Assembly (NCBI GenBank): GCA_036558145.1 | Contig: DATBGF010000393.1 | Location: 1 to 36,744, forward strand | Direction: 5' to 3' | Origin: Acidimicrobiales bacterium | GTDB lineage: Bacteria; Actinomycetota; Acidimicrobiia; Acidimicrobiales; VFJN01 | Length of the DNA stretch: 36,744 nucleotides | Shown: piece after piece, positions 2,900 to 36,744 of the stretch | Numbering within the stretch: the first letter of the stretch is position 1 | Layout: every line of letters starts with the position of its first letter | The notes under the pieces: model-generated | Told to the model about the DNA's origin: nothing | Seen by the model: the letters and a program-made list of their open reading frames with translations, nothing else | Database searches by the model: none | Translations under genes and position numbers: made by a program

Positions 2900-3600
2900 T
2901 TCGCCGCCGCCACCAGCAGGCCCACGGTCTCGGCCACGACGCCCGCCGCGCCGAGCACGTCCCCCGTGTAGCCGCCGAGCCGGCGCCGGGCGAGGCCCAC
3001 GACCGCCACGAACCCGGCGGCCGCGGCCACCACGGTGACCACCCCGGCCACGACCGGCGCGGCCACGACGATCGCCACGGCCGCGGCCACCAGCGTGACC
3101 AGCGCCCCGGCCGGGGGCGCGCCCGTCGCAAAGCCGGCGGCCGCACCGCCCGGGCGGGCGTAGGGGACCGAGGCCATCGTCACGGCCATGCCACTGCGGG
3201 CCGCGGCCCACAGGCCCACGACCAGCAGGACGTCGGGCGCCTGCGAGGCGAAGCCGGCCACCCGGGCCGCCAGCACCACCACCAGGGCGACGACCCCGAA
3301 GCTGCCGACATCCGGGGCGGACATGATGGCCAGGCGTTGGGGCGCCGGCACGGGCGGCAGCAGCCCGTCGGCGCTGTCGGCCAGCCCGTCGAGGTGCAGC
3401 ATCCCGGTGAGCCAGGCGTCGACCGCCACCGCCAGCACCGCGGCCACCAGCGGCGGCCACAGCTCGCCCGCGGCCCACCACGCGGCACCCACGGCCAGCC
3501 CCACCAGCGCTCCCACCGCCCCGAACCACGGCGCCGCCCGCCGGTCCGGCGGCGCCGCACCCCCGACGACGGTGAGGAAGGCCAGGGCGGAGCGCATCAT
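2893..3600 (-). CDS. cobS: Adenosylcobinamide-GDP ribazoletransferase (cobalamin synthase CobS)
   Basis: Last 235 aa of track ORF 2893..4509 (MMRSALAFLTVVGG...MLHLDGLADSADGL...LGGYTGDVLGA), a polytopic membrane protein. The ATG at 3600-3598 overlaps the cobU stop (ATGA). Confidence 0.85.
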   Translation of the reverse strand: MMRSALAFLTVVGGAAPPDRRAAPWFGAVGALVGLAVGAAWWAAGELWPPLVAAVLAVAVDAWLTGMLHLDGLADSADGLLPPVPAPQRLAIMSAPDVGSFGVVALVVVLAARVAGFASQAPDVLLVVGLWAAARSGMAVTMASVPYARPGGAAAGFATGAPPAGALVTLVAAAVAIVVAAPVVAGVVTVVAAAAGFVAVVGLARRRLGGYTGDVLGAAGVVAETVGLLVAAAKW

Positions 3601-32059: not shown

Positions 32060-32611
32060 GTGACGACTCAGTTCATCTGGATCGGGGAGCATCCCGGCCT
32101 CGACCTGTGCAACACCGAACCGGTCATCGACGGGGCGTTCGTCGATCTCCTCGCGGGGCCCGAGGCACTGGCGGCCTGGGCGGCCGGTGCCGGTCTGCCC
32201 CCGGTGGCCGCCGGCGACCTGACCGAGCGGACCGTGCGCTGGGCCCGGGCCCTGCGCGACGGGTTGCGGGCTGCGCTCGACCCTCCGGAGCGGGACCCGG
32301 ACCGCCTCGGCGACGTCGACGCCCTCCTGCGGCCCGTGCGGGGCACGCTCGGCCTGGCGACCGCTCCGGATCCCCGGCTGGTGCTGCGCTCGGACGGCCC
32401 CGAGGCGCAGTTCCGCCTCGACCTGGCGGCCGCGACGGTGCCCGCGCTGGCGCTCGATCCGGCCCGGGTCCGGCGCTGTGCGAGCGCTGCGTGCGTGTTG
32501 CTGTTCCATGACGTGAGCAAGGCCGGGCGCCGGCGCTGGTGCGACATGGCCACCTGCGGCAACCGGGCCAAGTCCGCCGCCCATCTCGCTCGCTCTCGGA
32601 GCACTCGGTGA
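32060..32611 (+). CDS. CGNR zinc-finger (ABATE-domain) putative nucleic-acid-binding regulator
   Basis: Track ORF of 183 aa. The N-terminal block is G.HPGLDLCNT, and the C-terminal zinc finger is C.....C..LF.D.S..GRRRWC.M.TCGNRAK. Confidence 0.85.
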   Translation: MTTQFIWIGEHPGLDLCNTEPVIDGAFVDLLAGPEALAAWAAGAGLPPVAAGDLTERTVRWARALRDGLRAALDPPERDPDRLGDVDALLRPVRGTLGLATAPDPRLVLRSDGPEAQFRLDLAAATVPALALDPARVRRCASAACVLLFHDVSKAGRRRWCDMATCGNRAKSAAHLARSRSTR

Positions 32612-33270
32612 GTGCCGCCACCGGAGAGATCGTGTCGGTCAACGTGGGCCGGCCCCGCCAGGTGGAGTGGCACGGCCGCACGGTGACCACGGCCATCTGG
32701 AAGAACCCGGTGCCGGGCCGGGTGCTGGTGGAGGGCGTCAACCTCGCCGGTGACGACCAGGCGGATCGCCGGGTCCACGGAGGCGAGACCAAGGCCGTCT
32801 ACGCCTACGCCGCCGAGGACTACGCCTGGTGGGCGGAGCAGCTGGGCGAGGCGCTCCGGCCCGGGACGTTCGGCGAGAACCTCACCCTGGCGGGCGTGGA
32901 CCTCCGGGCGCTGGTGGTGGGGGAGCGCTGGCGGGCCGGCACCGCGGTGCTGCGGGTGACCGAGCCCCGCTTCCCCTGCTTCAAGCTGGGCATACGCATG
33001 GGTGACGCCGCGTTCGTCGACCGCTTCGGGGCGGCCCGGCGCTCCGGCTCCTACTTCGCCATCGAGCGGGCGGGCATGGTCGGCGCCGGTGACGCCATGG
33101 AGCGCCTGGAGACCCCGGACGAGCGGTACACGATCGGCGACTTCGTCGACGACCACGAGGACGGCGGCCCCGAGGCCCTGGAGCGCCTGGCCGGCCAGCC
33201 GCTGGTCTCGCAGGCGTGGCGTGAGCACGCCGAGCGCGCCGCCGCCCGGGCCCGGGCCAAGGCCCCGTGA
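32608..33270 (+). CDS. MOSC-domain protein (YiiM-like)
   Basis: Track ORF 32539..33270, trimmed to the GTG at 32608 (GTGA overlap with the CGNR stop). Motifs: VSVNVGRP........T.I.K.PV.G, GDDQADRRVHGG..KAVYAY, GENLT..G, and the conserved Cys in EPRFPCFKLG. Confidence 0.85.
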   Translation: MSAATGEIVSVNVGRPRQVEWHGRTVTTAIWKNPVPGRVLVEGVNLAGDDQADRRVHGGETKAVYAYAAEDYAWWAEQLGEALRPGTFGENLTLAGVDLRALVVGERWRAGTAVLRVTEPRFPCFKLGIRMGDAAFVDRFGAARRSGSYFAIERAGMVGAGDAMERLETPDERYTIGDFVDDHEDGGPEALERLAGQPLVSQAWREHAERAAARARAKAP

Positions 33271-33339
33271 CTTGTCCACCCCCAGTTCACAGGGTTGTCC
33301 TCTCGTAGCGCACAGGGAGCGCGCCGTACCGTCTGCGCC

Positions 33340-33564
33340 ATGCCGACGTTCGAGGTGATCCTGCGGGACCGGACCGTCGAGACCGTCGACGGCGCCGACG
33401 CCTACCAGCAAGAAGGCCCGATGACCACGTTCTTCCGCCGCGGCGACGGCCGCGACGTGATCGACTCCTGGAGCACGCGCATGGCCAGCTTCCGCACCGC
33501 CGACCTGCTCGTGGTCCGGCGTCGGGACGCTGCGGTCCCCGCGCTGGCCGCGGTGGCGGGCTGA
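33340..33564 (+). CDS. Small hypothetical protein (74 aa)
   Basis: Track ORF 33295..33564 (TTG start), trimmed to the ATG at 33340 (MPTFEVILRDRTVETVDG...). It has strong GC3 bias and no recognisable motif. The start is uncertain. Confidence 0.5.
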   Translation: MPTFEVILRDRTVETVDGADAYQQEGPMTTFFRRGDGRDVIDSWSTRMASFRTADLLVVRRRDAAVPALAAVAG

Positions 33565-33576
33565 GGGGCGGCGGCG

Positions 33577-33768
33577 ATGGGCGAATCCCAGGCGTTCACC
33601 TGCCCCCGGTGCGGCAGCGACGTCACCGAGACCTACTACGGACCGTGCCGGTCCTGCCGCGACGAGCTGCGGGCCGAGGTGGCCGCGGAGGCCCGCACGG
33701 TGGACGAACAGGCGTATGAACCGAAGATGAATGTGACACCCAACGCGGTGGCCCTGAAAGACGACTGA
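33577..33768 (+). CDS. Small zinc-ribbon protein (63 aa, CPRC...CRSC)
   Basis: Track ORF with two CxxC pairs spaced 12 residues apart and an acidic tail. GC3 bias holds except in the last ~15 codons. Confidence 0.55.
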   Translation: MGESQAFTCPRCGSDVTETYYGPCRSCRDELRAEVAAEARTVDEQAYEPKMNVTPNAVALKDD

Positions 33769-33793
33769 AACACAGTTTTCACCATGTCAGAAC

Positions 33794-33809
33794 GGTGACG
33801 AACGTCACC
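33794..33809. promoter_or_regulatory. 16-bp perfect palindrome GGTGACG-AA-CGTCACC. Either an operator or a U-tract-less terminator.
   Basis: Read directly. It lies 26 nt after the zinc-ribbon stop, at the head of the 225-nt leader. Confidence 0.35.
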
Positions 33810-33811
33810 TG

Positions 33812-33935
33812 GCCGCGCGCTAGGGTGCGTGGTGAAATCGCAGTCCGCGCAGGCCTGCAGCCACGCCGGGAAGGGCTGAGGGAACGCCCCGGAAGGGGTG
33901 TCGTCACGAGGTCCTCGGCTACCTGCCTGCGCGGT
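33812..33935 (+). ncRNA. Candidate ligand-sensing leader (cobalamin-riboswitch-like motif order; class unconfirmed)
   Basis: The closing helix is CCGCGC (33813-18) with GCGCGG (33929-34). Inside are a hairpin 33826-42 with loop UGGUGAAAU, GCCAC..GGGAAGG (33860-74), a CGCCCC-GGAA-GGGGUG hairpin (33885-900) and ACCUGCC (33921-27). This was matched by eye to remembered consensus only. Confidence 0.3.
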
Positions 33936-33962
33936 TTCTGCTGGGGTCGGGGGCCGGGGTCG

Positions 33963-33988
33963 GGCTCCGACGCAAGACGAACGGAGCC
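33963..33988 (+). promoter_or_regulatory. Shine-Dalgarno-sequestering hairpin GGCUCCG-12 nt-CGGAGCC upstream of the sensor gene
   Basis: A perfect 7-bp stem (33963-69 with 33982-88). The 3' arm contains GGAG (33983-86), 7 nt before GTG 33994. Confidence 0.4.
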
Positions 33989-33993
33989 GCCAC

Positions 33994-36387
33994 GTGGTCC
34001 GCCGCATCCCCATCCGCGCCAAGGTTGCCGGAGCGCTGGCCATACCGCTCGTCGCACTGGTCGTCGGGGCAGCGATGGGGGCGTCCGCCAACGCCGCCGA
34101 AGCCTCCCAGGTCATGCACCAGGCCGATCTCGCCACCGCCTCGATCGGCCACGCCGGCCTCATCAGCGCGCTGCAGGACGAGCGCAACGTCGCCCTCATC
34201 GAGATGCTGGGGCTGAGCGGGCGCATCCAGCTGGATCCGGCCGACACCGAGGCGGCGCGGCGGGCGACCGATGCCGCCCACACCGCCCTGCACGACGAGA
34301 TCGCCGACCAGGCCGACACGCTGCGCGACGACTACTCCGTGGCGCTGGAGAGCCTGGACCAGCTCGACGGCGTGCGGGACCGGGTCGACGCGGCCACCGC
34401 AGCCGGCACCGGGGCGCCCGACCGCGACGAGGCCCATGAGGTCTTCAGCGCCTACAGCGACATGATCGGGACGCTGTTCGCCTCCCACGACCGCTTCTCA
34501 CCGATGGTCGACGACGCGGCCCTGCGCCAGGGCGACGACCTGCTCCACTCCTCGTCCCACGCGACCGACGCGGTCGCCCAGCTCGTCGAGCGGCTGCTGT
34601 TCTGGGGCAGCAGCCCGGGCGGCATCGACGAGCCCGAGGAGGCGGCGCGCGTCGCCGAGGCCGCCCGCGACGTCGAGCGGAACAACGCGGTGGTGCGCAA
34701 CAAGGGCACGGGGGCCTACGCCCGGGCGACCGACGCGCTGCTCGCCGGCCCGCGGGTCACCGGCCTGCTCGACTACGCCGACGAGGCCATCCGCAGCGGG
34801 CAGGTCGACCCGGACGCGCTGTTGGCCACGACGCCCCTCGGTCCCGAAGGTGGCTACTCGGCGTTCCGTGACCAGGTGGCCGGCGTCCTCGACAACGAGG
34901 CGACCCGCCTGGCGGACGAGGCCGACGCCCGGCGCCGGCTGTACTGGGCGGCCGCCCTGGTGGTCCTGGCCGGCGCCGTGGGGGTCGCGTACATCGTGAG
35001 CCGGTCGATCACCCGGCCGCTGCGCCACCTGAGCAAGGAGGCGGGCGCCACGGCCAGCTACCGCCTGCCGGCGGCCGTGCAGGACATCCTCGACGCCCCG
35101 GCGGGCACCGACGTGGCGGTCCCCGAGATGCCGCCCCACGTGGAGGGCCCGCGCGACGAGGTGGGCGACGTGGCCCGGGCGCTCGAGGACCTGCAGCGCT
35201 CGGCGCTCACCCTGGCGGTCGAGCAGGCGGCGTTGCGGCGCAACGTGGCCGAGTCCTACGTGAACCTCGGCCGGCGCAGCCAGAACCTGCTCAGCCGGCT
35301 GCTGGACTCGGTCGGCGAGCTGGGGCGCACCGAGACCGACCCCGACCGCCTCGACCAGATCTACCGCCTCGAGCACCTGGCCAACCGCATCCGCCGCAAC
35401 GCCGAGTCGCTGCTCGTGCTGTCCGAGCCCGTGGCCCCCACCCGCTGGCAGCCGCCCGTGCACGTGGCCGACGTGGTGCGGGCCGCGCTGGGGGAGATCG
35501 AGAACCACGAGCGGGTCGTGGTCCGCACGCTGGAGCCGGCGATGGTGCGGGGCGGGTCCTCGAGCGACCTCGCCCACATCCTGGCCGAGCTGGTCGAGAA
35601 CGCCCTGCGCCACTCCCCGCCGCGGGAGCTGGTCGAGGTGAGCGGGCACACGGGCGAGGGCGGCTACTGCATCTCCGTCGTCGACCACGGCCTGGGCATG
35701 ACCCCCGAGGACCTGGAGCTGGCCAACCAGCGCCTGGCCGGGGCCGAGTCGTTCACCGTCACGCCCGCCCGCTACATGGGCCACTACGTGACGGCGGTGC
35801 TGGCCGGCCGCCATGGCGTGTCCGTCCGCCTGCACGGCTCGGTGGTGGCCGGGATCACCGCCCTGGTCACGCTGCCCCCAACGCTGCTGACCGAGCACCC
35901 CGACCACCCCGCGTCCCCCCGCCCGCTGGGCGAGCCCGACCCGCTCTCGGGCGGGTGGCCCGACGCCCCGGCCCCCGAGCACCCGACCGCCCACGACGTG
36001 CGGGCGGCGGTGACGCTGCTGCGGACCCGCACCGCGGCTCCCGCCCGCGAGACCGTCACGGCCGGGCTGCGCGCCCCGGCGGTGGAGGCCATCGTCCCGC
36101 GCCACTGGCCCGCCCGCTCCGAGCGCGACCGCCCCGTCGCGGCGGCCCCGGGGACGGGATCGGCCACGGTCGTGAGCGGGCCGAGCGCCCGGTCACGGGC
36201 CACCGAGACGGCGGGGCGCACGGCCAGTGGCCTGGTCCGGCGGGTGCCCACGACCCCGCGGCCGCCGAGCGCGCGCGCCGCCCGGCCCGAGATGGAGCGG
36301 TTCCTCACCAGCCTGGCCGGCCGGACGCCGCCGGTCTCCGACCCCGACCCCGAGGCCGGCGACGGCCCGGACGGACCGGGGAGGTGA
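33994..36387 (+). CDS. Conservon CvnA-type sensor: TM - NIT (nitrate/nitrite-sensing-like) domain - TM - HAMP - histidine-kinase-like ATPase, with a long Pro/Arg/Ala-rich tail
   Basis: Track ORF 33898..36387, trimmed to the GTG at 33994 (VVRRIPIRAKVAGALAIPLVALVVG; SD GGAG lies 7 nt upstream). It has a NIT-like helical sensor (ISALQDERNVAL...), HAMP (ITRPLRHLSKEA), LEHLANRIRRNAESLLVL and HATPase_c blocks (ELVENALRHSPP, VVDHGLGM). The last ~150 aa are low-complexity. Confidence 0.85.
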   Translation: MVRRIPIRAKVAGALAIPLVALVVGAAMGASANAAEASQVMHQADLATASIGHAGLISALQDERNVALIEMLGLSGRIQLDPADTEAARRATDAAHTALHDEIADQADTLRDDYSVALESLDQLDGVRDRVDAATAAGTGAPDRDEAHEVFSAYSDMIGTLFASHDRFSPMVDDAALRQGDDLLHSSSHATDAVAQLVERLLFWGSSPGGIDEPEEAARVAEAARDVERNNAVVRNKGTGAYARATDALLAGPRVTGLLDYADEAIRSGQVDPDALLATTPLGPEGGYSAFRDQVAGVLDNEATRLADEADARRRLYWAAALVVLAGAVGVAYIVSRSITRPLRHLSKEAGATASYRLPAAVQDILDAPAGTDVAVPEMPPHVEGPRDEVGDVARALEDLQRSALTLAVEQAALRRNVAESYVNLGRRSQNLLSRLLDSVGELGRTETDPDRLDQIYRLEHLANRIRRNAESLLVLSEPVAPTRWQPPVHVADVVRAALGEIENHERVVVRTLEPAMVRGGSSSDLAHILAELVENALRHSPPRELVEVSGHTGEGGYCISVVDHGLGMTPEDLELANQRLAGAESFTVTPARYMGHYVTAVLAGRHGVSVRLHGSVVAGITALVTLPPTLLTEHPDHPASPRPLGEPDPLSGGWPDAPAPEHPTAHDVRAAVTLLRTRTAAPARETVTAGLRAPAVEAIVPRHWPARSERDRPVAAAPGTGSATVVSGPSARSRATETAGRTASGLVRRVPTTPRPPSARAARPEMERFLTSLAGRTPPVSDPDPEAGDGPDGPGR

Positions 36388-36744
36388 CCGTGCTGACCGA
36401 CGAGGCCCGCAACTTCAACTGGCTGCTCGAGAGCTTCGTGGGCGAGACCGCGGGGGTCACCGACGCCATGGCCGTCTCGTCCGACGGGATGCTCATCGCC
36501 CGCTCCGAGACCCTGGAGGCGCAGGAGAGCGACCTGCTGTGCGCCATCATCGCCGGCACCGCCGGCCTGGCGATGGCCGCCTCGCGTGCCCTGTCCGGCG
36601 GTGGCCTGGAGCGGGTCGTCATCACGATGGAGCGCGGGTTCCTGTTCGTCAGCGCCATCGCGGACGGCAGCTGCCTCGGCGTGGTCGCCACGCGCGACTG
36701 CGATGTGGGCTCGATCGGCTACCAGACGACCGACCTGGTCCACC
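36384..36744 (+). CDS. Roadblock/LC7 (MglB/CvnB-like) protein, 3' end outside the window
   Basis: Not in the track because there is no stop in the window. Manual translation from GTG 36384 (GTGA overlap with the sensor stop) or GTG 36390 reads (MT)VLTDEARNFNWLLESFVGETAGVTDAMAVSSDGMLIARSE...ERVVITMERGFLFVSAIADGSCLGVVA, the typical Roadblock/LC7 pattern that follows CvnA-type sensors. Confidence 0.8.
   Translation, partial: MTVLTDEARNFNWLLESFVGETAGVTDAMAVSSDGMLIARSETLEAQESDLLCAIIAGTAGLAMAASRALSGGGLERVVITMERGFLFVSAIADGSCLGVVATRDCDVGSIGYQTTDLVH

What the first reader, a model, noticed from the sequence alone, without database searches (positions are those of the whole stretch)
33812..33993. Structured 5' leader with cobalamin-aptamer-like motif order and an SD-sequestering hairpin in front of a conservon sensor gene
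Seen in sequence: the longest non-coding stretch in the window (33769-33993) precedes the NIT/HAMP sensor gene. In 5'-3' order it contains:
- CCGCGC (33813-18), able to pair with GCGCGG (33929-34)
- AGGG
- a hairpin UGCG/CGCA displaying the loop UGGUGAAAU (33826-42)
- GCCAC..GGGAAGG (33860-74)
- a CGCCCC-GGAA-GGGGUG tetraloop hairpin (33885-900)
- ACCUGCC (33921-27)
From memory this mirrors, in the correct order, conserved cobalamin-riboswitch elements: the GGUG..AAUCC hairpin, GCCACUG...GGGAAGG, and the B12 box ending GACCUGCC. However, the element is short (~125 nt), the B12 box matches only in its 3' half, and the CCCGC.ACUG junction is not evident. Downstream, GGCUCCG (33963-69) pairs perfectly with CGGAGCC (33982-88) and buries the only SD (GGAG, 7 nt before GTG 33994), as in translational expression platforms.
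Inference: this is a ligand-responsive leader. If it senses a corrinoid, control of a conservon (Ras-like GTPase signalling module) would be a new regulatory target. The cob operon in this same window has no room for a riboswitch.
Basis: partly seen in the sequence, partly recalled or inferred. Interest (0 to 1): 0.65.

Follow-up and report, generated by a model that had tools for sequence, protein, structure and literature searches.

The report
Conserved cvnA leader, not B12 riboswitch
The stretch in front of this sensor-kinase gene is a conserved regulatory region (probably a promoter plus a short leader whose hairpin hides the ribosome-binding site), but it is not a vitamin-B12 riboswitch or any other known RNA family.

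Summary
The cobalamin reading fails. Rfam finds no cobalamin or AdoCbl-variant match, even at E<=10, in the window or in 15 orthologous leaders. The supposedly B12-like pieces (GGAA hairpin, ACCUGCC, GCGCGG) lie in a variable insert that close orthologues lack.

From 26 distinct orthologous leaders (uncultured Acidimicrobiia):
- **Gene-specific conservation.** It begins abruptly at 33782 and follows cvnA, not the upstream gene.
- **The 5' part looks like promoter DNA.** It reads TGTC-N6-GTGAC-GAAC-GTCA-CTGG, then 20 nt whose last 13 vary freely, then an A-rich hexamer always 24 nt after CTGG. That suggests a transcription-factor site plus core promoter, with transcription starting near 33845. 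This is inferred, not shown.
- **The hairpin is the one well-supported RNA feature.** GGCUCCG (33963-69) pairs with CGGAGCC (33982-88) and buries the Shine-Dalgarno sequence. Its 6-bp core is invariant although the loops vary in length and sequence.
- **No covariation, no excess folding stability, no supported alternative pairing.** What opens the hairpin is unknown.

Orthologous loci carry cvnA and cvnB followed by a radical-SAM gene, not a four-gene conservon. Interest is low to moderate.

The parts
33782..33791 (+). Upstream edge of conservation: CCATGTCAGA with an invariant TGTC (33785-88), always 6 nt before GTGA.
   Evidence: TGTC-N6-GTGA-N6-TCA occurs once in each of 28 loci that carry the cvnA leader and in none of the other 76 loci held at that time. 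Nothing upstream of it is conserved; L092 has a different upstream gene.
33795..33808 (.). Palindrome GTGACGAACGTCAC. It fits GTGA-N6-TCAC (CRP/FNR-like) or TGAC-N4-GTCA. Most likely a transcription-factor binding site.
   Evidence: GTGAC and GTCA are near-invariant, while the inner bases vary (CGAACG, CGAATG, CGAAAG, CAAACG, CGATCG). The outer G-C pair is lost in most leaders (TCAAC), so half-sites are kept but a hairpin is not. L016 lacks it and L014 has a different palindrome.
33809..33819 (+). CTGGCCGCGCG (CTGGTTGCGCG in most orthologues). Semi-conserved block in the position of a -35 region.
   Evidence: CTGG and GC are near-invariant.
33820..33832 (+). 13-nt spacer of fixed length and free sequence (CTAGGGTGCGTGG).
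   Evidence: Length is identical in 23 of 24 distinct leaders. Sequence is unrelated even between near-identical leaders (L012 vs L095). The hairpin model for this stretch was rejected.
33833..33838 (+). A-rich hexamer TGAAAT (TAGAAA in most orthologues). Candidate -10 element.
   Evidence: It always lies 24 nt after the C of CTGG (25 nt in L016). Assignment as -10 is an inference: it lacks the canonical final T in most leaders.
33843..33882 (+). Start of the probable 5' UTR (TSS inferred near 33845). Holds the diverged counterparts of conserved blocks YCCGUACCGG and GCCGUGAACGCUGGGG.
   Evidence: The blocks are conserved in sequence, but no helix has covariation support.
33883..33934 (+). Variable insert (approximate bounds) of GC-rich hairpins.
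   Evidence: Absent from L094 and from all short-type leaders (L007, L010, L012, L014, L090, L092, L093). Different sequence in L002 and L006.
33943..33964 (+). G-rich tract GGGG TC GGGGG CC GGGG TC GGG. It can pair with the anti-SD and formally fits a G-quadruplex motif.
   Evidence: Pairing with the anti-SD is no better than in dinucleotide shuffles. The four-tract arrangement is conserved only in window-type leaders.
33963..33969 (+). Anti-SD GGCUCCG.
   Evidence: GCUCCG is conserved in all leaders except L016 (a variant that still pairs). L001 has CUUCG, which gives a U-G wobble.
33970..33981 (+). Purine-rich loop of the SD hairpin, variable in length (10-16 nt) and sequence.
33982..33988 (+). 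SD strand CGGAGCC (GGAG at 33983-86).
   Evidence: 84% of cells are paired against 21-42% in slid controls. The SD is predicted unpaired with P<0.1 in 13 of 19 leaders.
33994..36387 (+). cvnA-like sensor gene (NIT, HAMP, HATPase_c), start GTG 33994.

Best explanation
The interval 33782-33993 is the dedicated control region of a cvnA-type NIT/HAMP sensor-kinase gene in an uncultured Acidimicrobiia lineage. It has two parts.

**(1) 33782-33838 is most likely promoter DNA (inferred).**
- It holds a protein-binding array: TGTC-N6-GTGAC-GAAC-GTCA, a CRP/FNR-like GTGA-N6-TCAC palindrome.
- This abuts a weak -35-position block (CTGGYYGCGCG).
- A 13-nt spacer of fixed length and free sequence follows, then an A-rich -10-like hexamer (TGAAAT here, TAGAAA in most orthologues).
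- Transcription would then start near 33845 and depend on a bound factor.

**(2) The roughly 150-nt 5' UTR ends in a conserved hairpin.**
- GGCUCCG (33963-69) pairs with CGGAGCC (33982-88) and occludes the Shine-Dalgarno GGAG, 7 nt before GTG 33994.
- Translation of the sensor would therefore be held low, or made conditional on something that melts the hairpin.
- The middle of the UTR is a dispensable, lineage-variable set of GC-rich hairpins.

**Shown versus inferred.**
- Shown: conservation, gene specificity, the spacing rule, conserved SD/anti-SD complementarity, and the absence of any known RNA family.
- Inferred: the TSS, promoter function, factor binding, and translational repression.
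- Unknown: what opens the hairpin.
For: **No known RNA family.** Rfam gives no match at gathering threshold over the whole window, none relevant at E<=10 over 33700-34060, and none in the leaders of 15 orthologous loci at E<=5.

**Orthologues and gene specificity.**
- 26 distinct leaders were collected.
- Conservation starts at CCATGTC whatever lies upstream. In L092, cvnA sits about 1 kb from the Zn-ribbon gene with other genes between, yet the whole leader is kept.
- About 60 loci where the Zn-ribbon gene is not followed by cvnA lack the element.
- A profile search of 405 kb finds exactly one copy per cvnA locus.

**Promoter-like geometry.**
- The distance from CTGG to the A-rich hexamer is 24 nt in 23 of 24 distinct leaders. 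The last 13 nt differ freely, even between near-identical leaders (L012 vs L095).
- Palindrome half-sites are invariant while the inner bases vary and the outer hairpin pair is lost.
- L014 and L016 keep everything from CTGG onward but lack or replace the palindrome block, which is modular behaviour.
- CRP consensus and class II placement over the -35 region are described in PMC10187061.

**RNA helices proposed for the 5' part fail controls.**
- Local hairpin: 63% of cells paired against 70% when slid.
- Long-range GGUUGCGC x GCGCAGCC: 80% paired against 79.2% in shuffles, and 61 of 500 shuffles reach its covariation score.

**SD hairpin.**
- The 6-bp core is invariant with loops of 10-16 nt. 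84% of cells are paired against 21-42% when slid.
- There are wobble-compatible changes in L001 and L062 and one compensatory change in L093.
- The SD is predicted paired in 17 of 19 leaders more than the shuffle mean.
Against: **No transcription data.** The TSS is a guess.

**The -10 candidate is imperfect.** It lacks the canonical final T in most leaders (TAGAAA) and has G at position 2 in the window (TGAAAT). No good -35 is present.

**The palindrome geometry is not canonical.**
- It lies 24 bp, not the class II 22 bp, from the second base of the hexamer (compared with the sequence).
- It also reads as 9-bp-spaced TGTSA repeats, so the factor family is uncertain.
- The motif occurs only once in the window, against 0.53 expected by chance, so no regulon evidence exists.

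**An RNA role for the 5' part is not excluded.**
- The long-range pairing GGUUGCRC x GYGCAGCC shows a G-C, G-U, A-U series (L007, L003, L097) and a compensated U-A to C-G in L062.
- It is in register: 80% paired against 58% or less when slid.

**The SD hairpin has almost no covariation.** Both strands are sequence-constrained, so its conservation is compatible with structure but does not prove it.

**SD occlusion by chance is common in 72% GC sequence.** The shuffle mean for P(unpaired) is only 0.26-0.48.
Confidence: 0.5

Rival explanations
1. A new, undescribed cis-regulatory RNA: a riboswitch or protein-binding leader. The whole conserved region 33782-33993 would be transcribed. GGYYGCGC (33811-18) would pair with GCAGCC/GCGCAGG downstream, enclosing the A-rich box and the YCCGUACCGG block as a binding core. 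The SD hairpin would be its expression platform.
For: - Conserved sequence blocks continue downstream of the A-rich box.
- The long-range helix is 80% paired against 25-58% in slid registers. It shows G-C, G-U and A-U variants and a compensated pair in L062.
- Lineage-specific hairpins in the UTR show compensatory or wobble-consistent changes: L010 GAUCG/CGAUC against L090 GAUCC/GGAUC, and L097, L101 and L003 (read from the sequences).
- A conserved SD-occluding hairpin is the usual translational expression platform.
Against: - No measure of the long-range helix clearly exceeds column-preserving shuffles: 79.2% of cells pair by composition alone, and 61 of 500 shuffles reach its covariation score.
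- RNAalifold recovers only the SD helix.
- The mean MFE z-score of 26 UTRs is -0.31.
- Pairing of an anti-anti-SD with the anti-SD is no better than shuffles.
- Conservation begins abruptly with no conserved promoter upstream of it, in several different upstream contexts.
- A 13-nt stretch of fixed length and unconstrained sequence is atypical for an aptamer core.
Confidence: 0.15
2. A divergent cobalamin (AdoCbl) riboswitch.
For: Only the motif resemblance in the window itself: GGUGAAAU in a loop, GCCAC..GGGAAGG, ACCUGCC, and an SD hairpin.
Against: - RF00174 and RF01689 are not reported even at E<=10 in the window, nor at E<=5 in 15 orthologous leaders. The whole window has no Rfam hit at gathering threshold.
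- ACCUGCC, the GGAA hairpin and GCGCGG are absent from L094 and from all short-type leaders. GGGAAGG is GUGAACG or GGGUCGG elsewhere. GGUGAAAU is GUAGAAAAC in most leaders.
Confidence: 0.02
3. An RNA thermometer or a purely constitutive translational damper. The SD hairpin alone sets a low, possibly temperature-dependent, output of the membrane sensor, with no ligand or factor involved.
For: - The SD hairpin is conserved, with a duplex energy of about -8 to -12 kcal/mol and variable A-rich loops.
- There is no evidence for an aptamer or for a specific alternative pairing.
Against: - No resemblance to ROSE or fourU elements, and no Rfam hit.
- It does not explain the conserved UTR blocks YCCGUACCGG and GCCGUGAACGCUGGGG.
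- A 6-7 bp G-C-rich stem is rather stable for a thermometer.
Confidence: 0.2
4. Chance structure in GC-rich intergenic DNA, with no dedicated function.
For: In the single window sequence, neither folding energy nor SD occlusion exceeds shuffles convincingly.
Against: - Blocks are about 80-100% identical across orthologues whose CvnA proteins are only 52-62% identical.
- The spacing is strict, and there is one gene-specific copy per locus.
Confidence: 0.03

Closest known systems
Cobalamin riboswitch (Rfam RF00174) and AdoCbl-variant (RF01689)
   Same: Both lie in a 5' leader, and translational versions end in an SD-sequestering hairpin. A few short strings in the window resemble conserved cobalamin-riboswitch strings.
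   Different: - No covariance-model match at any permissive threshold.
- The look-alike strings are not conserved in orthologues and lie partly in probable promoter DNA and partly in a dispensable insert.
- No B12 box.
- The downstream gene is a sensor kinase, not a cobalamin-related gene.
Translational expression platforms and SD-occluding leader hairpins (riboswitch platforms, RNA thermometers such as ROSE or fourU)
   Same: A conserved anti-SD segment 10-16 nt upstream pairs with the SD and its flanks. The loop is free to vary. It lies immediately before the start codon.
   Different: - No identifiable sensor domain.
- No supported alternative (anti-anti-SD) pairing.
- No sequence similarity to the known thermometer families.
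CRP/FNR-type activator-dependent (class II-like) promoters, site consensus TGTGA-N6-TCACA (PMC10187061)
   Same: - A GTGA-N6-TCAC palindrome (TGTGA-N6-TCAAC in most orthologues), with invariant half-sites and a variable centre.
- It sits directly next to and upstream of a poor -35 region, at a fixed distance from a -10-like box.
   Different: - The distance to the second base of the hexamer is 24 bp, not 22 bp.
- There is an extra invariant TGTC 6 nt upstream, and the central AA is conserved.
- The TSS, the factor and any regulon are unknown.
- The same bases also read as three TGTSA repeats spaced 9 bp apart.
Conservon / actinobacterial G protein system (cvnA-D; PMC13343842, PMC13621833)
   Same: The regulated gene is a CvnA-type NIT/HAMP/HATPase sensor, followed by a Roadblock/LC7 (CvnB-type) gene.
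   Different: In orthologous loci L001 and L003 the next gene is an AmmeMemoRadiSam radical-SAM enzyme, not cvnC (DUF742) or cvnD (Ras-like GTPase). The four-gene system is not verified here.

Membership tests
Cobalamin riboswitch (RF00174 / RF01689) | Match to the family covariance model at or above the gathering score | tested here: not met
   No match even at E<=10 in 33700-34060, nor at E<=5 in 15 orthologous loci.
Cobalamin riboswitch (RF00174 / RF01689) | A conserved B12 box and core junction elements retained across homologues | tested here: not met
   ACCUGCC, the GGAA hairpin and GCGCGG are absent from L094 and from short-type leaders. The other look-alike strings change in orthologues.
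Cobalamin riboswitch (RF00174 / RF01689) | Corrinoid binding or a structural response | not testable with these tools
   Needs in-line probing or SHAPE with AdoCbl, MeCbl or OH-Cbl.
Any riboswitch or structured cis-regulatory RNA | A consensus secondary structure supported by covariation in homologues | tested here: not met
   - RNAalifold recovers only the SD helix.
- covariation scores are not above shuffles.
Any riboswitch or structured cis-regulatory RNA | Folding stability above the compositional background | tested here: not met
   The mean z-score is -0.31 over 26 leaders; the window scores -0.69.
SD-sequestering translational control hairpin | An anti-SD segment complementary to the SD, close upstream of the start codon | tested here: met
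   GGCUCCG 33963-69 pairs with CGGAGCC 33982-88, and GGAG lies 7 nt before the GTG.
SD-sequestering translational control hairpin | Complementarity retained in orthologues despite loop variation | tested here: met
   84% of cells are paired against 21-42% when slid. The 6-bp core is invariant, with wobble changes in L001 and L062 and one compensatory pair in L093.
SD-sequestering translational control hairpin | A regulated alternative structure that frees the SD | tested here: inconclusive
   An upstream G-rich partner exists in every leader, but it is no better than in dinucleotide shuffles (mean fraction 0.40).
SD-sequestering translational control hairpin | A measurable effect on translation | not testable with these tools
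   Needs reporter fusions or toeprinting.
CRP/FNR-type activator site at a class II promoter | A 16-bp palindrome TGTGA-N6-TCACA with conserved half-sites | tested here: inconclusive
   GTGA-N6-TCAC is present and the half-sites are invariant. However, the flanking T/A positions vary, the centre is conserved, and an extra TGTC block is present.
CRP/FNR-type activator site at a class II promoter | A site centred near -41.5 relative to a mapped TSS | not testable with these tools
   No TSS data. The distance to the candidate -10 is 24 bp rather than 22 bp.
Conservon (cvnA-cvnB-cvnC-cvnD) | A CvnA-type sensor kinase followed by a Roadblock/LC7 protein | tested here: met
   NIT, HAMP and HATPase_c are found, and Robl_LC7 lies at 36387-36743 with E=1e-16.
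Conservon (cvnA-cvnB-cvnC-cvnD) | cvnC (DUF742) and cvnD (Ras-like GTPase) in the same operon | tested here: not met
   The window ends inside cvnB. In L001 and L003 the next gene is an AmmeMemoRadiSam radical-SAM enzyme (TIGR04337, E=7e-178). The four-protein definition comes from PMC13343842 and PMC13621833.

The most novel reading that the evidence does not exclude
The conserved region is a previously undescribed cis-regulatory RNA class specific to NIT-domain CvnA sensor genes of Acidimicrobiia. Its conserved blocks (GUAGAAAAC, YCCGUACCGG, GCCGUGAACGCUGGGG) would form a ligand- or protein-binding core, closed by the GGUUGCGC x GCGCAGCC helix. The conserved SD hairpin would be its expression platform. 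This would be the first riboswitch-like control of a conservon-type signalling gene.
Probability: 0.12. Interest if true: 0.6.

Novelty: new member of a known kind. Interest (0 to 1): 0.27.

Why it matters
How conservon-type sensor genes are themselves regulated is largely unknown. Here a lineage of uncultured Acidimicrobiia keeps a dedicated, strongly conserved control region in front of a NIT-domain CvnA gene. It has a likely factor-binding site and a conserved hairpin that masks the ribosome-binding site.

This gives concrete, testable handles: a DNA probe for pulling down the factor, and a hairpin to mutate.

For the scan itself, the main value is negative. The window holds no cobalamin riboswitch. 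Short motif look-alikes in 72% GC sequence do not survive covariance-model or comparative tests.

Tried and rejected
1. **Cobalamin or any Rfam family.** Rejected.
The 3' partner lies in a variable insert that L094, L002, L006 and short-type leaders lack.
3. **Hairpin GUGAC-GAAC-GUCAC as a conserved RNA stem or terminator.** The outer pair is lost in most leaders, leaving only 4 bp. There is no U-tract. Inserts upstream of it in L003, L097 and L010 fold no better than shuffles, so there is no terminator evidence.
4. **Local hairpin UUGCGCG/CNCGUAG.** 63% of cells paired against 70% in a slid register.
5. **Long-range helix GGUUGCGC x GCGCAGCC.** It is in register, but covariation is not above shuffles. 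Kept only as a rival.
6. **ACCGG/CCGU hairpin.** No covariation.
7. **Three-part switch (pseudo-SD UCGGGG, anti-SD, SD).** No better than dinucleotide shuffles.
8. **Excess thermodynamic stability.** Absent.
9. **N-terminal extension of cvnA from GTG 33898, or a uORF.** L001 carries 1-nt indels in this stretch (one after 33898), there is no GC3 signal before about 33990, and the AUGs in some loops are out of frame and not conserved (reading of sequences).
10. **Sigma-70 consensus promoter or intrinsic terminator.** None found by the simple scan.
11. **GlnR box, sigma-54, and ECF-type -35/-10 readings of the 5' block.** Spacings do not fit, or the elements are not conserved. This rests on reading the alignments against what I know of those consensus sequences.
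12. **Regulon search for the palindrome in the window.** One site against 0.53 expected.
13. **Repeat or mobile element.** One copy per cvnA locus and none elsewhere in 405 kb.
14. **More orthologues.** A protein search with CvnA gave only 8 hits. The P0119 look-up gave 8 copies identical to L048. P0016 and P0059 are not followed by cvnA.
Full report
**1. Observation**

- CCGCGC 33813-18 and GCGCGG 33929-34
- TGCG / TGGTGAAAT / CGCA 33826-42
- GCCAC..GGGAAGG 33860-74
- CGCCCC-GGAA-GGGGTG 33885-900
- ACCTGCC 33921-27
- GGCTCCG 33963-69 and CGGAGCC 33982-88
- GGAG 33983-86, 7 nt before GTG 33994

The start at 33994 is supported in two ways. Third-position GC rises only from about 33990. All orthologues begin with a conserved GTG/TTG followed by VVRRIPIRAKVAG. 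The gene encodes a NIT/HAMP/HATPase_c sensor.

**2. Direct test of the cobalamin idea**

- cmscan of the whole window against Rfam 15 at gathering thresholds gives no hit of any family.
- The sensitive mode on 33700-34060 at E<=10 returns only two meaningless eukaryotic matches. It returns no cobalamin or AdoCbl-variant match.
- The same permissive search over 15 orthologous loci (58.8 kb) finds nothing in any leader.
- The window sequence folds only marginally better than dinucleotide shuffles: z = -1.89 for 33769-34010 and -0.69 for the probable UTR.

**3. Orthologues**

- A scan of species-representative genomes with the sensor protein found three loci: two Actinomycetota MAGs at 90% and 82% identity, and one Acidimicrobiaceae MAG at 52%.
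- The 63-aa Zn-ribbon gene just upstream (33577-33768) has 840 homologues. It served as a handle for a metagenome scan and for contig look-ups.
- Only a minority of Zn-ribbon loci are followed by the sensor gene.
- In total I obtained 26 distinct leaders.

Three observations place the element:
- In L092 the sensor gene is about 1 kb from the Zn-ribbon gene, with other genes between. The full leader still precedes the sensor gene.
- The roughly 60 loci without the sensor gene lack the element.

The element therefore belongs to cvnA and is not a repeat.

**4. Anatomy from the comparison**

Conservation begins abruptly at CCATGTC (33782). Nothing upstream of it is conserved, in several different upstream contexts.

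The consensus of the first 60 nt is TGTC-N6-GTGAC-gAAc-GTCA-n-CTGG-yy-GCGCG-N13-(T)AGAAA. Its features:
- GTGAC and GTCA are near-invariant while the bases between them vary (CGAACG, CGAATG, CGAAAG, CAAACG, CGATCG).
- The base that would close a hairpin is lost in most leaders (TCAAC). The half-sites are conserved, not a stem.
- The distance from CTGG to the A-rich hexamer is 24 nt in 23 of 24 distinct leaders.
- The last 13 nt of that interval differ freely. This holds even between L012 and L095, which are otherwise almost identical.
- L014 and L016 keep everything from CTGG onward but lack or replace the palindrome block.

Downstream follow:
- two sequence blocks (YCCGUACCGG and GCCGUGAACGCUGGGG), diverged in the window-type leaders;
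- a middle section that varies by 0 to about 100 nt;
- a G-rich tract;
- the invariant GCUCCG(A), a purine-rich loop of 10-16 nt, and RAACGGAGC before the start codon.

**5.

- L094 encodes a CvnA 78% identical to the window's and has identical 5' and 3' leader ends. It lacks about 45 nt of the middle, including the CGCCCC-GGAA-GGGGUG hairpin, ACCUGCC and GCGCGG.
- L002 and L006 have different sequence there, and the short-type leaders have none of it.
- GGGAAGG is GUGAACG or GGGUCGG in other leaders. UGGUGAAAU is GUAGAAAAC in most.
- The UGCG/CGCA hairpin spans the free-sequence spacer and the A-rich box.

**6. Tests for RNA structure**

- RNAalifold on 13 diverse UTRs recovers only the SD helix with any confidence.
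- The mean MFE z-score of 26 UTRs is -0.31, with a range of -2.3 to +1.3.
- On a 22-sequence alignment:
  - The local hairpin is worse than a slid register: 63% of cells paired against 70%.
  - The ACCGG/CCGU helix shows no covariation.
  - The long-range helix GGUUGCGC x GCGCAGCC is 80% paired against 25-58% when slid, with G-C, G-U and A-U variants. Column-preserving shuffles give 79.2%, and 61 of 500 reach its covariation score. It is possible but unsupported.
- The attractive three-part switch (a G-rich pseudo-SD competing for the anti-SD) does not beat dinucleotide shuffles: mean fraction 0.40.

**7. The SD hairpin**

- On 19 distinct sequences, the 8-pair helix is 84% paired against 21-42% in slid registers.
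- Its 6-bp core is essentially invariant.
- L001 (C to U) and L062 (C to U on the SD side) keep pairing through wobble. L093 has one compensatory G-C to C-G.
- The SD is predicted unpaired with P<0.1 in 13 of 19 leaders. Shuffle means are 0.26-0.48, and 17 of 19 leaders fall below their shuffle mean.
- Loop length varies by 6 nt, so a spacing-sensitive DNA-binding dimer is an unlikely explanation. An RNA hairpin is the simplest one.
- Because both strands are sequence-constrained, this is conservation of complementarity, not covariation.

**8. Best explanation**

- 33782-33838 is most likely promoter DNA. It holds a factor-binding array that fits GTGA-N6-TCAC, the CRP/FNR type. The consensus and the class II placement over the -35 region come from PMC10187061.
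- This array abuts a poor -35-position block and sits at a fixed distance from an A-rich -10-like hexamer. The TSS would then lie near 33845.
- The UTR ends in an SD-occluding hairpin that keeps sensor translation low or conditional.

Weak points:
- There are no transcription data.
- The hexamer is non-canonical.
- The spacing to the hexamer is 24 bp rather than 22 bp.
- The same bases read as TGTSA repeats at 9-bp spacing.
- The motif occurs once in the window against 0.53 expected, so no regulon evidence exists.

My estimates are about 0.55-0.6 that the 5' part acts as DNA, about 0.75 that the SD hairpin is a selected feature, and above 0.95 that this is not a cobalamin riboswitch.

**9. Context correction**

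- The gene after cvnA is a Roadblock/LC7 (cvnB-type) gene that runs off the window.
- In L001 and L003 the next gene is an AmmeMemoRadiSam radical-SAM enzyme, not cvnC/cvnD.
- Conservons are defined by four core proteins (PMC13343842, PMC13621833).
- Control of a Ras-like GTPase module is therefore not established for this locus.

**10. Novelty and score**

The region is absent from Rfam, and my literature searches turned up no description of it. What can be supported is a promoter-plus-leader with an SD-masking hairpin, which is a known kind of regulation. It is a useful handle for a poorly understood signalling family in uncultured Acidimicrobiia, but it is not surprising. A new riboswitch-like RNA remains possible at roughly 0.12.

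Noticed in passing
window 33577-33768 (+): A 63-aa Zn-ribbon protein (CPRC...YGPC..CR) with an invariant C-terminal tail, YEPKMNVTPNAVALKDD. It has 840 homologues and at least 595 metagenome loci, mostly Acidimicrobiales, with no Pfam or NCBIfam family. The invariance is at protein level, because synonymous differences are present. Only a minority of copies sit next to cvnA.
   Followed up: partly
window 36387-36743 (+); L001:5388-6939; L003:5543-7211: cvnA is followed by a Roadblock/LC7 gene. In orthologous loci the next gene is an AmmeMemoRadiSam radical-SAM enzyme (TIGR04337, E=7e-178) rather than cvnC/cvnD. This is a two-gene cvnA-cvnB unit, not a verified four-gene conservon.
   Followed up: partly
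window 33943-33964 (+): GGGG TC GGGGG CC GGGG TC GGG formally fits a G-quadruplex motif on the sense strand, immediately upstream of and overlapping the anti-SD. The four-tract arrangement is conserved only in window-type leaders.
   Followed up: partly
L010:~3316-3330 and L090 equivalent: A hairpin between the G-run and the anti-SD shows a clean compensatory swap between two related leaders: GAUCG-CACGA-CGAUC against GAUCC-CACGA-GGAUC. The L097, L101 and L003 hairpins show G-U/A-U/G-C changes. This hints that the variable UTR middle is kept as hairpins.
   Followed up: partly
window 33295-33564 (+): An 89-aa ORF with no family assignment is conserved next to the Zn-ribbon gene. It is on the same strand in L002 and on the opposite strand in L003.
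   Followed up: no
window 32060-33270 (+): An ABATE/zf-CGNR putative regulator and a MOSC-domain protein lie just upstream. The same order is kept in L084-L089. The CGNR zinc-finger protein is a conceivable binder of the conserved region, but this is untested.
   Followed up: no
window 1-36744: The whole window has no Rfam match at gathering thresholds.
   Followed up: partly
L014:~3210-3240: In L014 the usual palindrome block is replaced by a different palindrome, TGACG-ACGG-CGTCA. It lies 11 bp (one helical turn) further from CTGG, and its half-sites are spaced 2 bp wider. This is unexplained.
   Followed up: no
L048 and L105-L112: The L048-type leader and its Zn-ribbon gene are found with identical sequence in many independent samples. 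The index lists the protein in 131 blocks of the collection, so this is an abundant environmental lineage.
   Followed up: no
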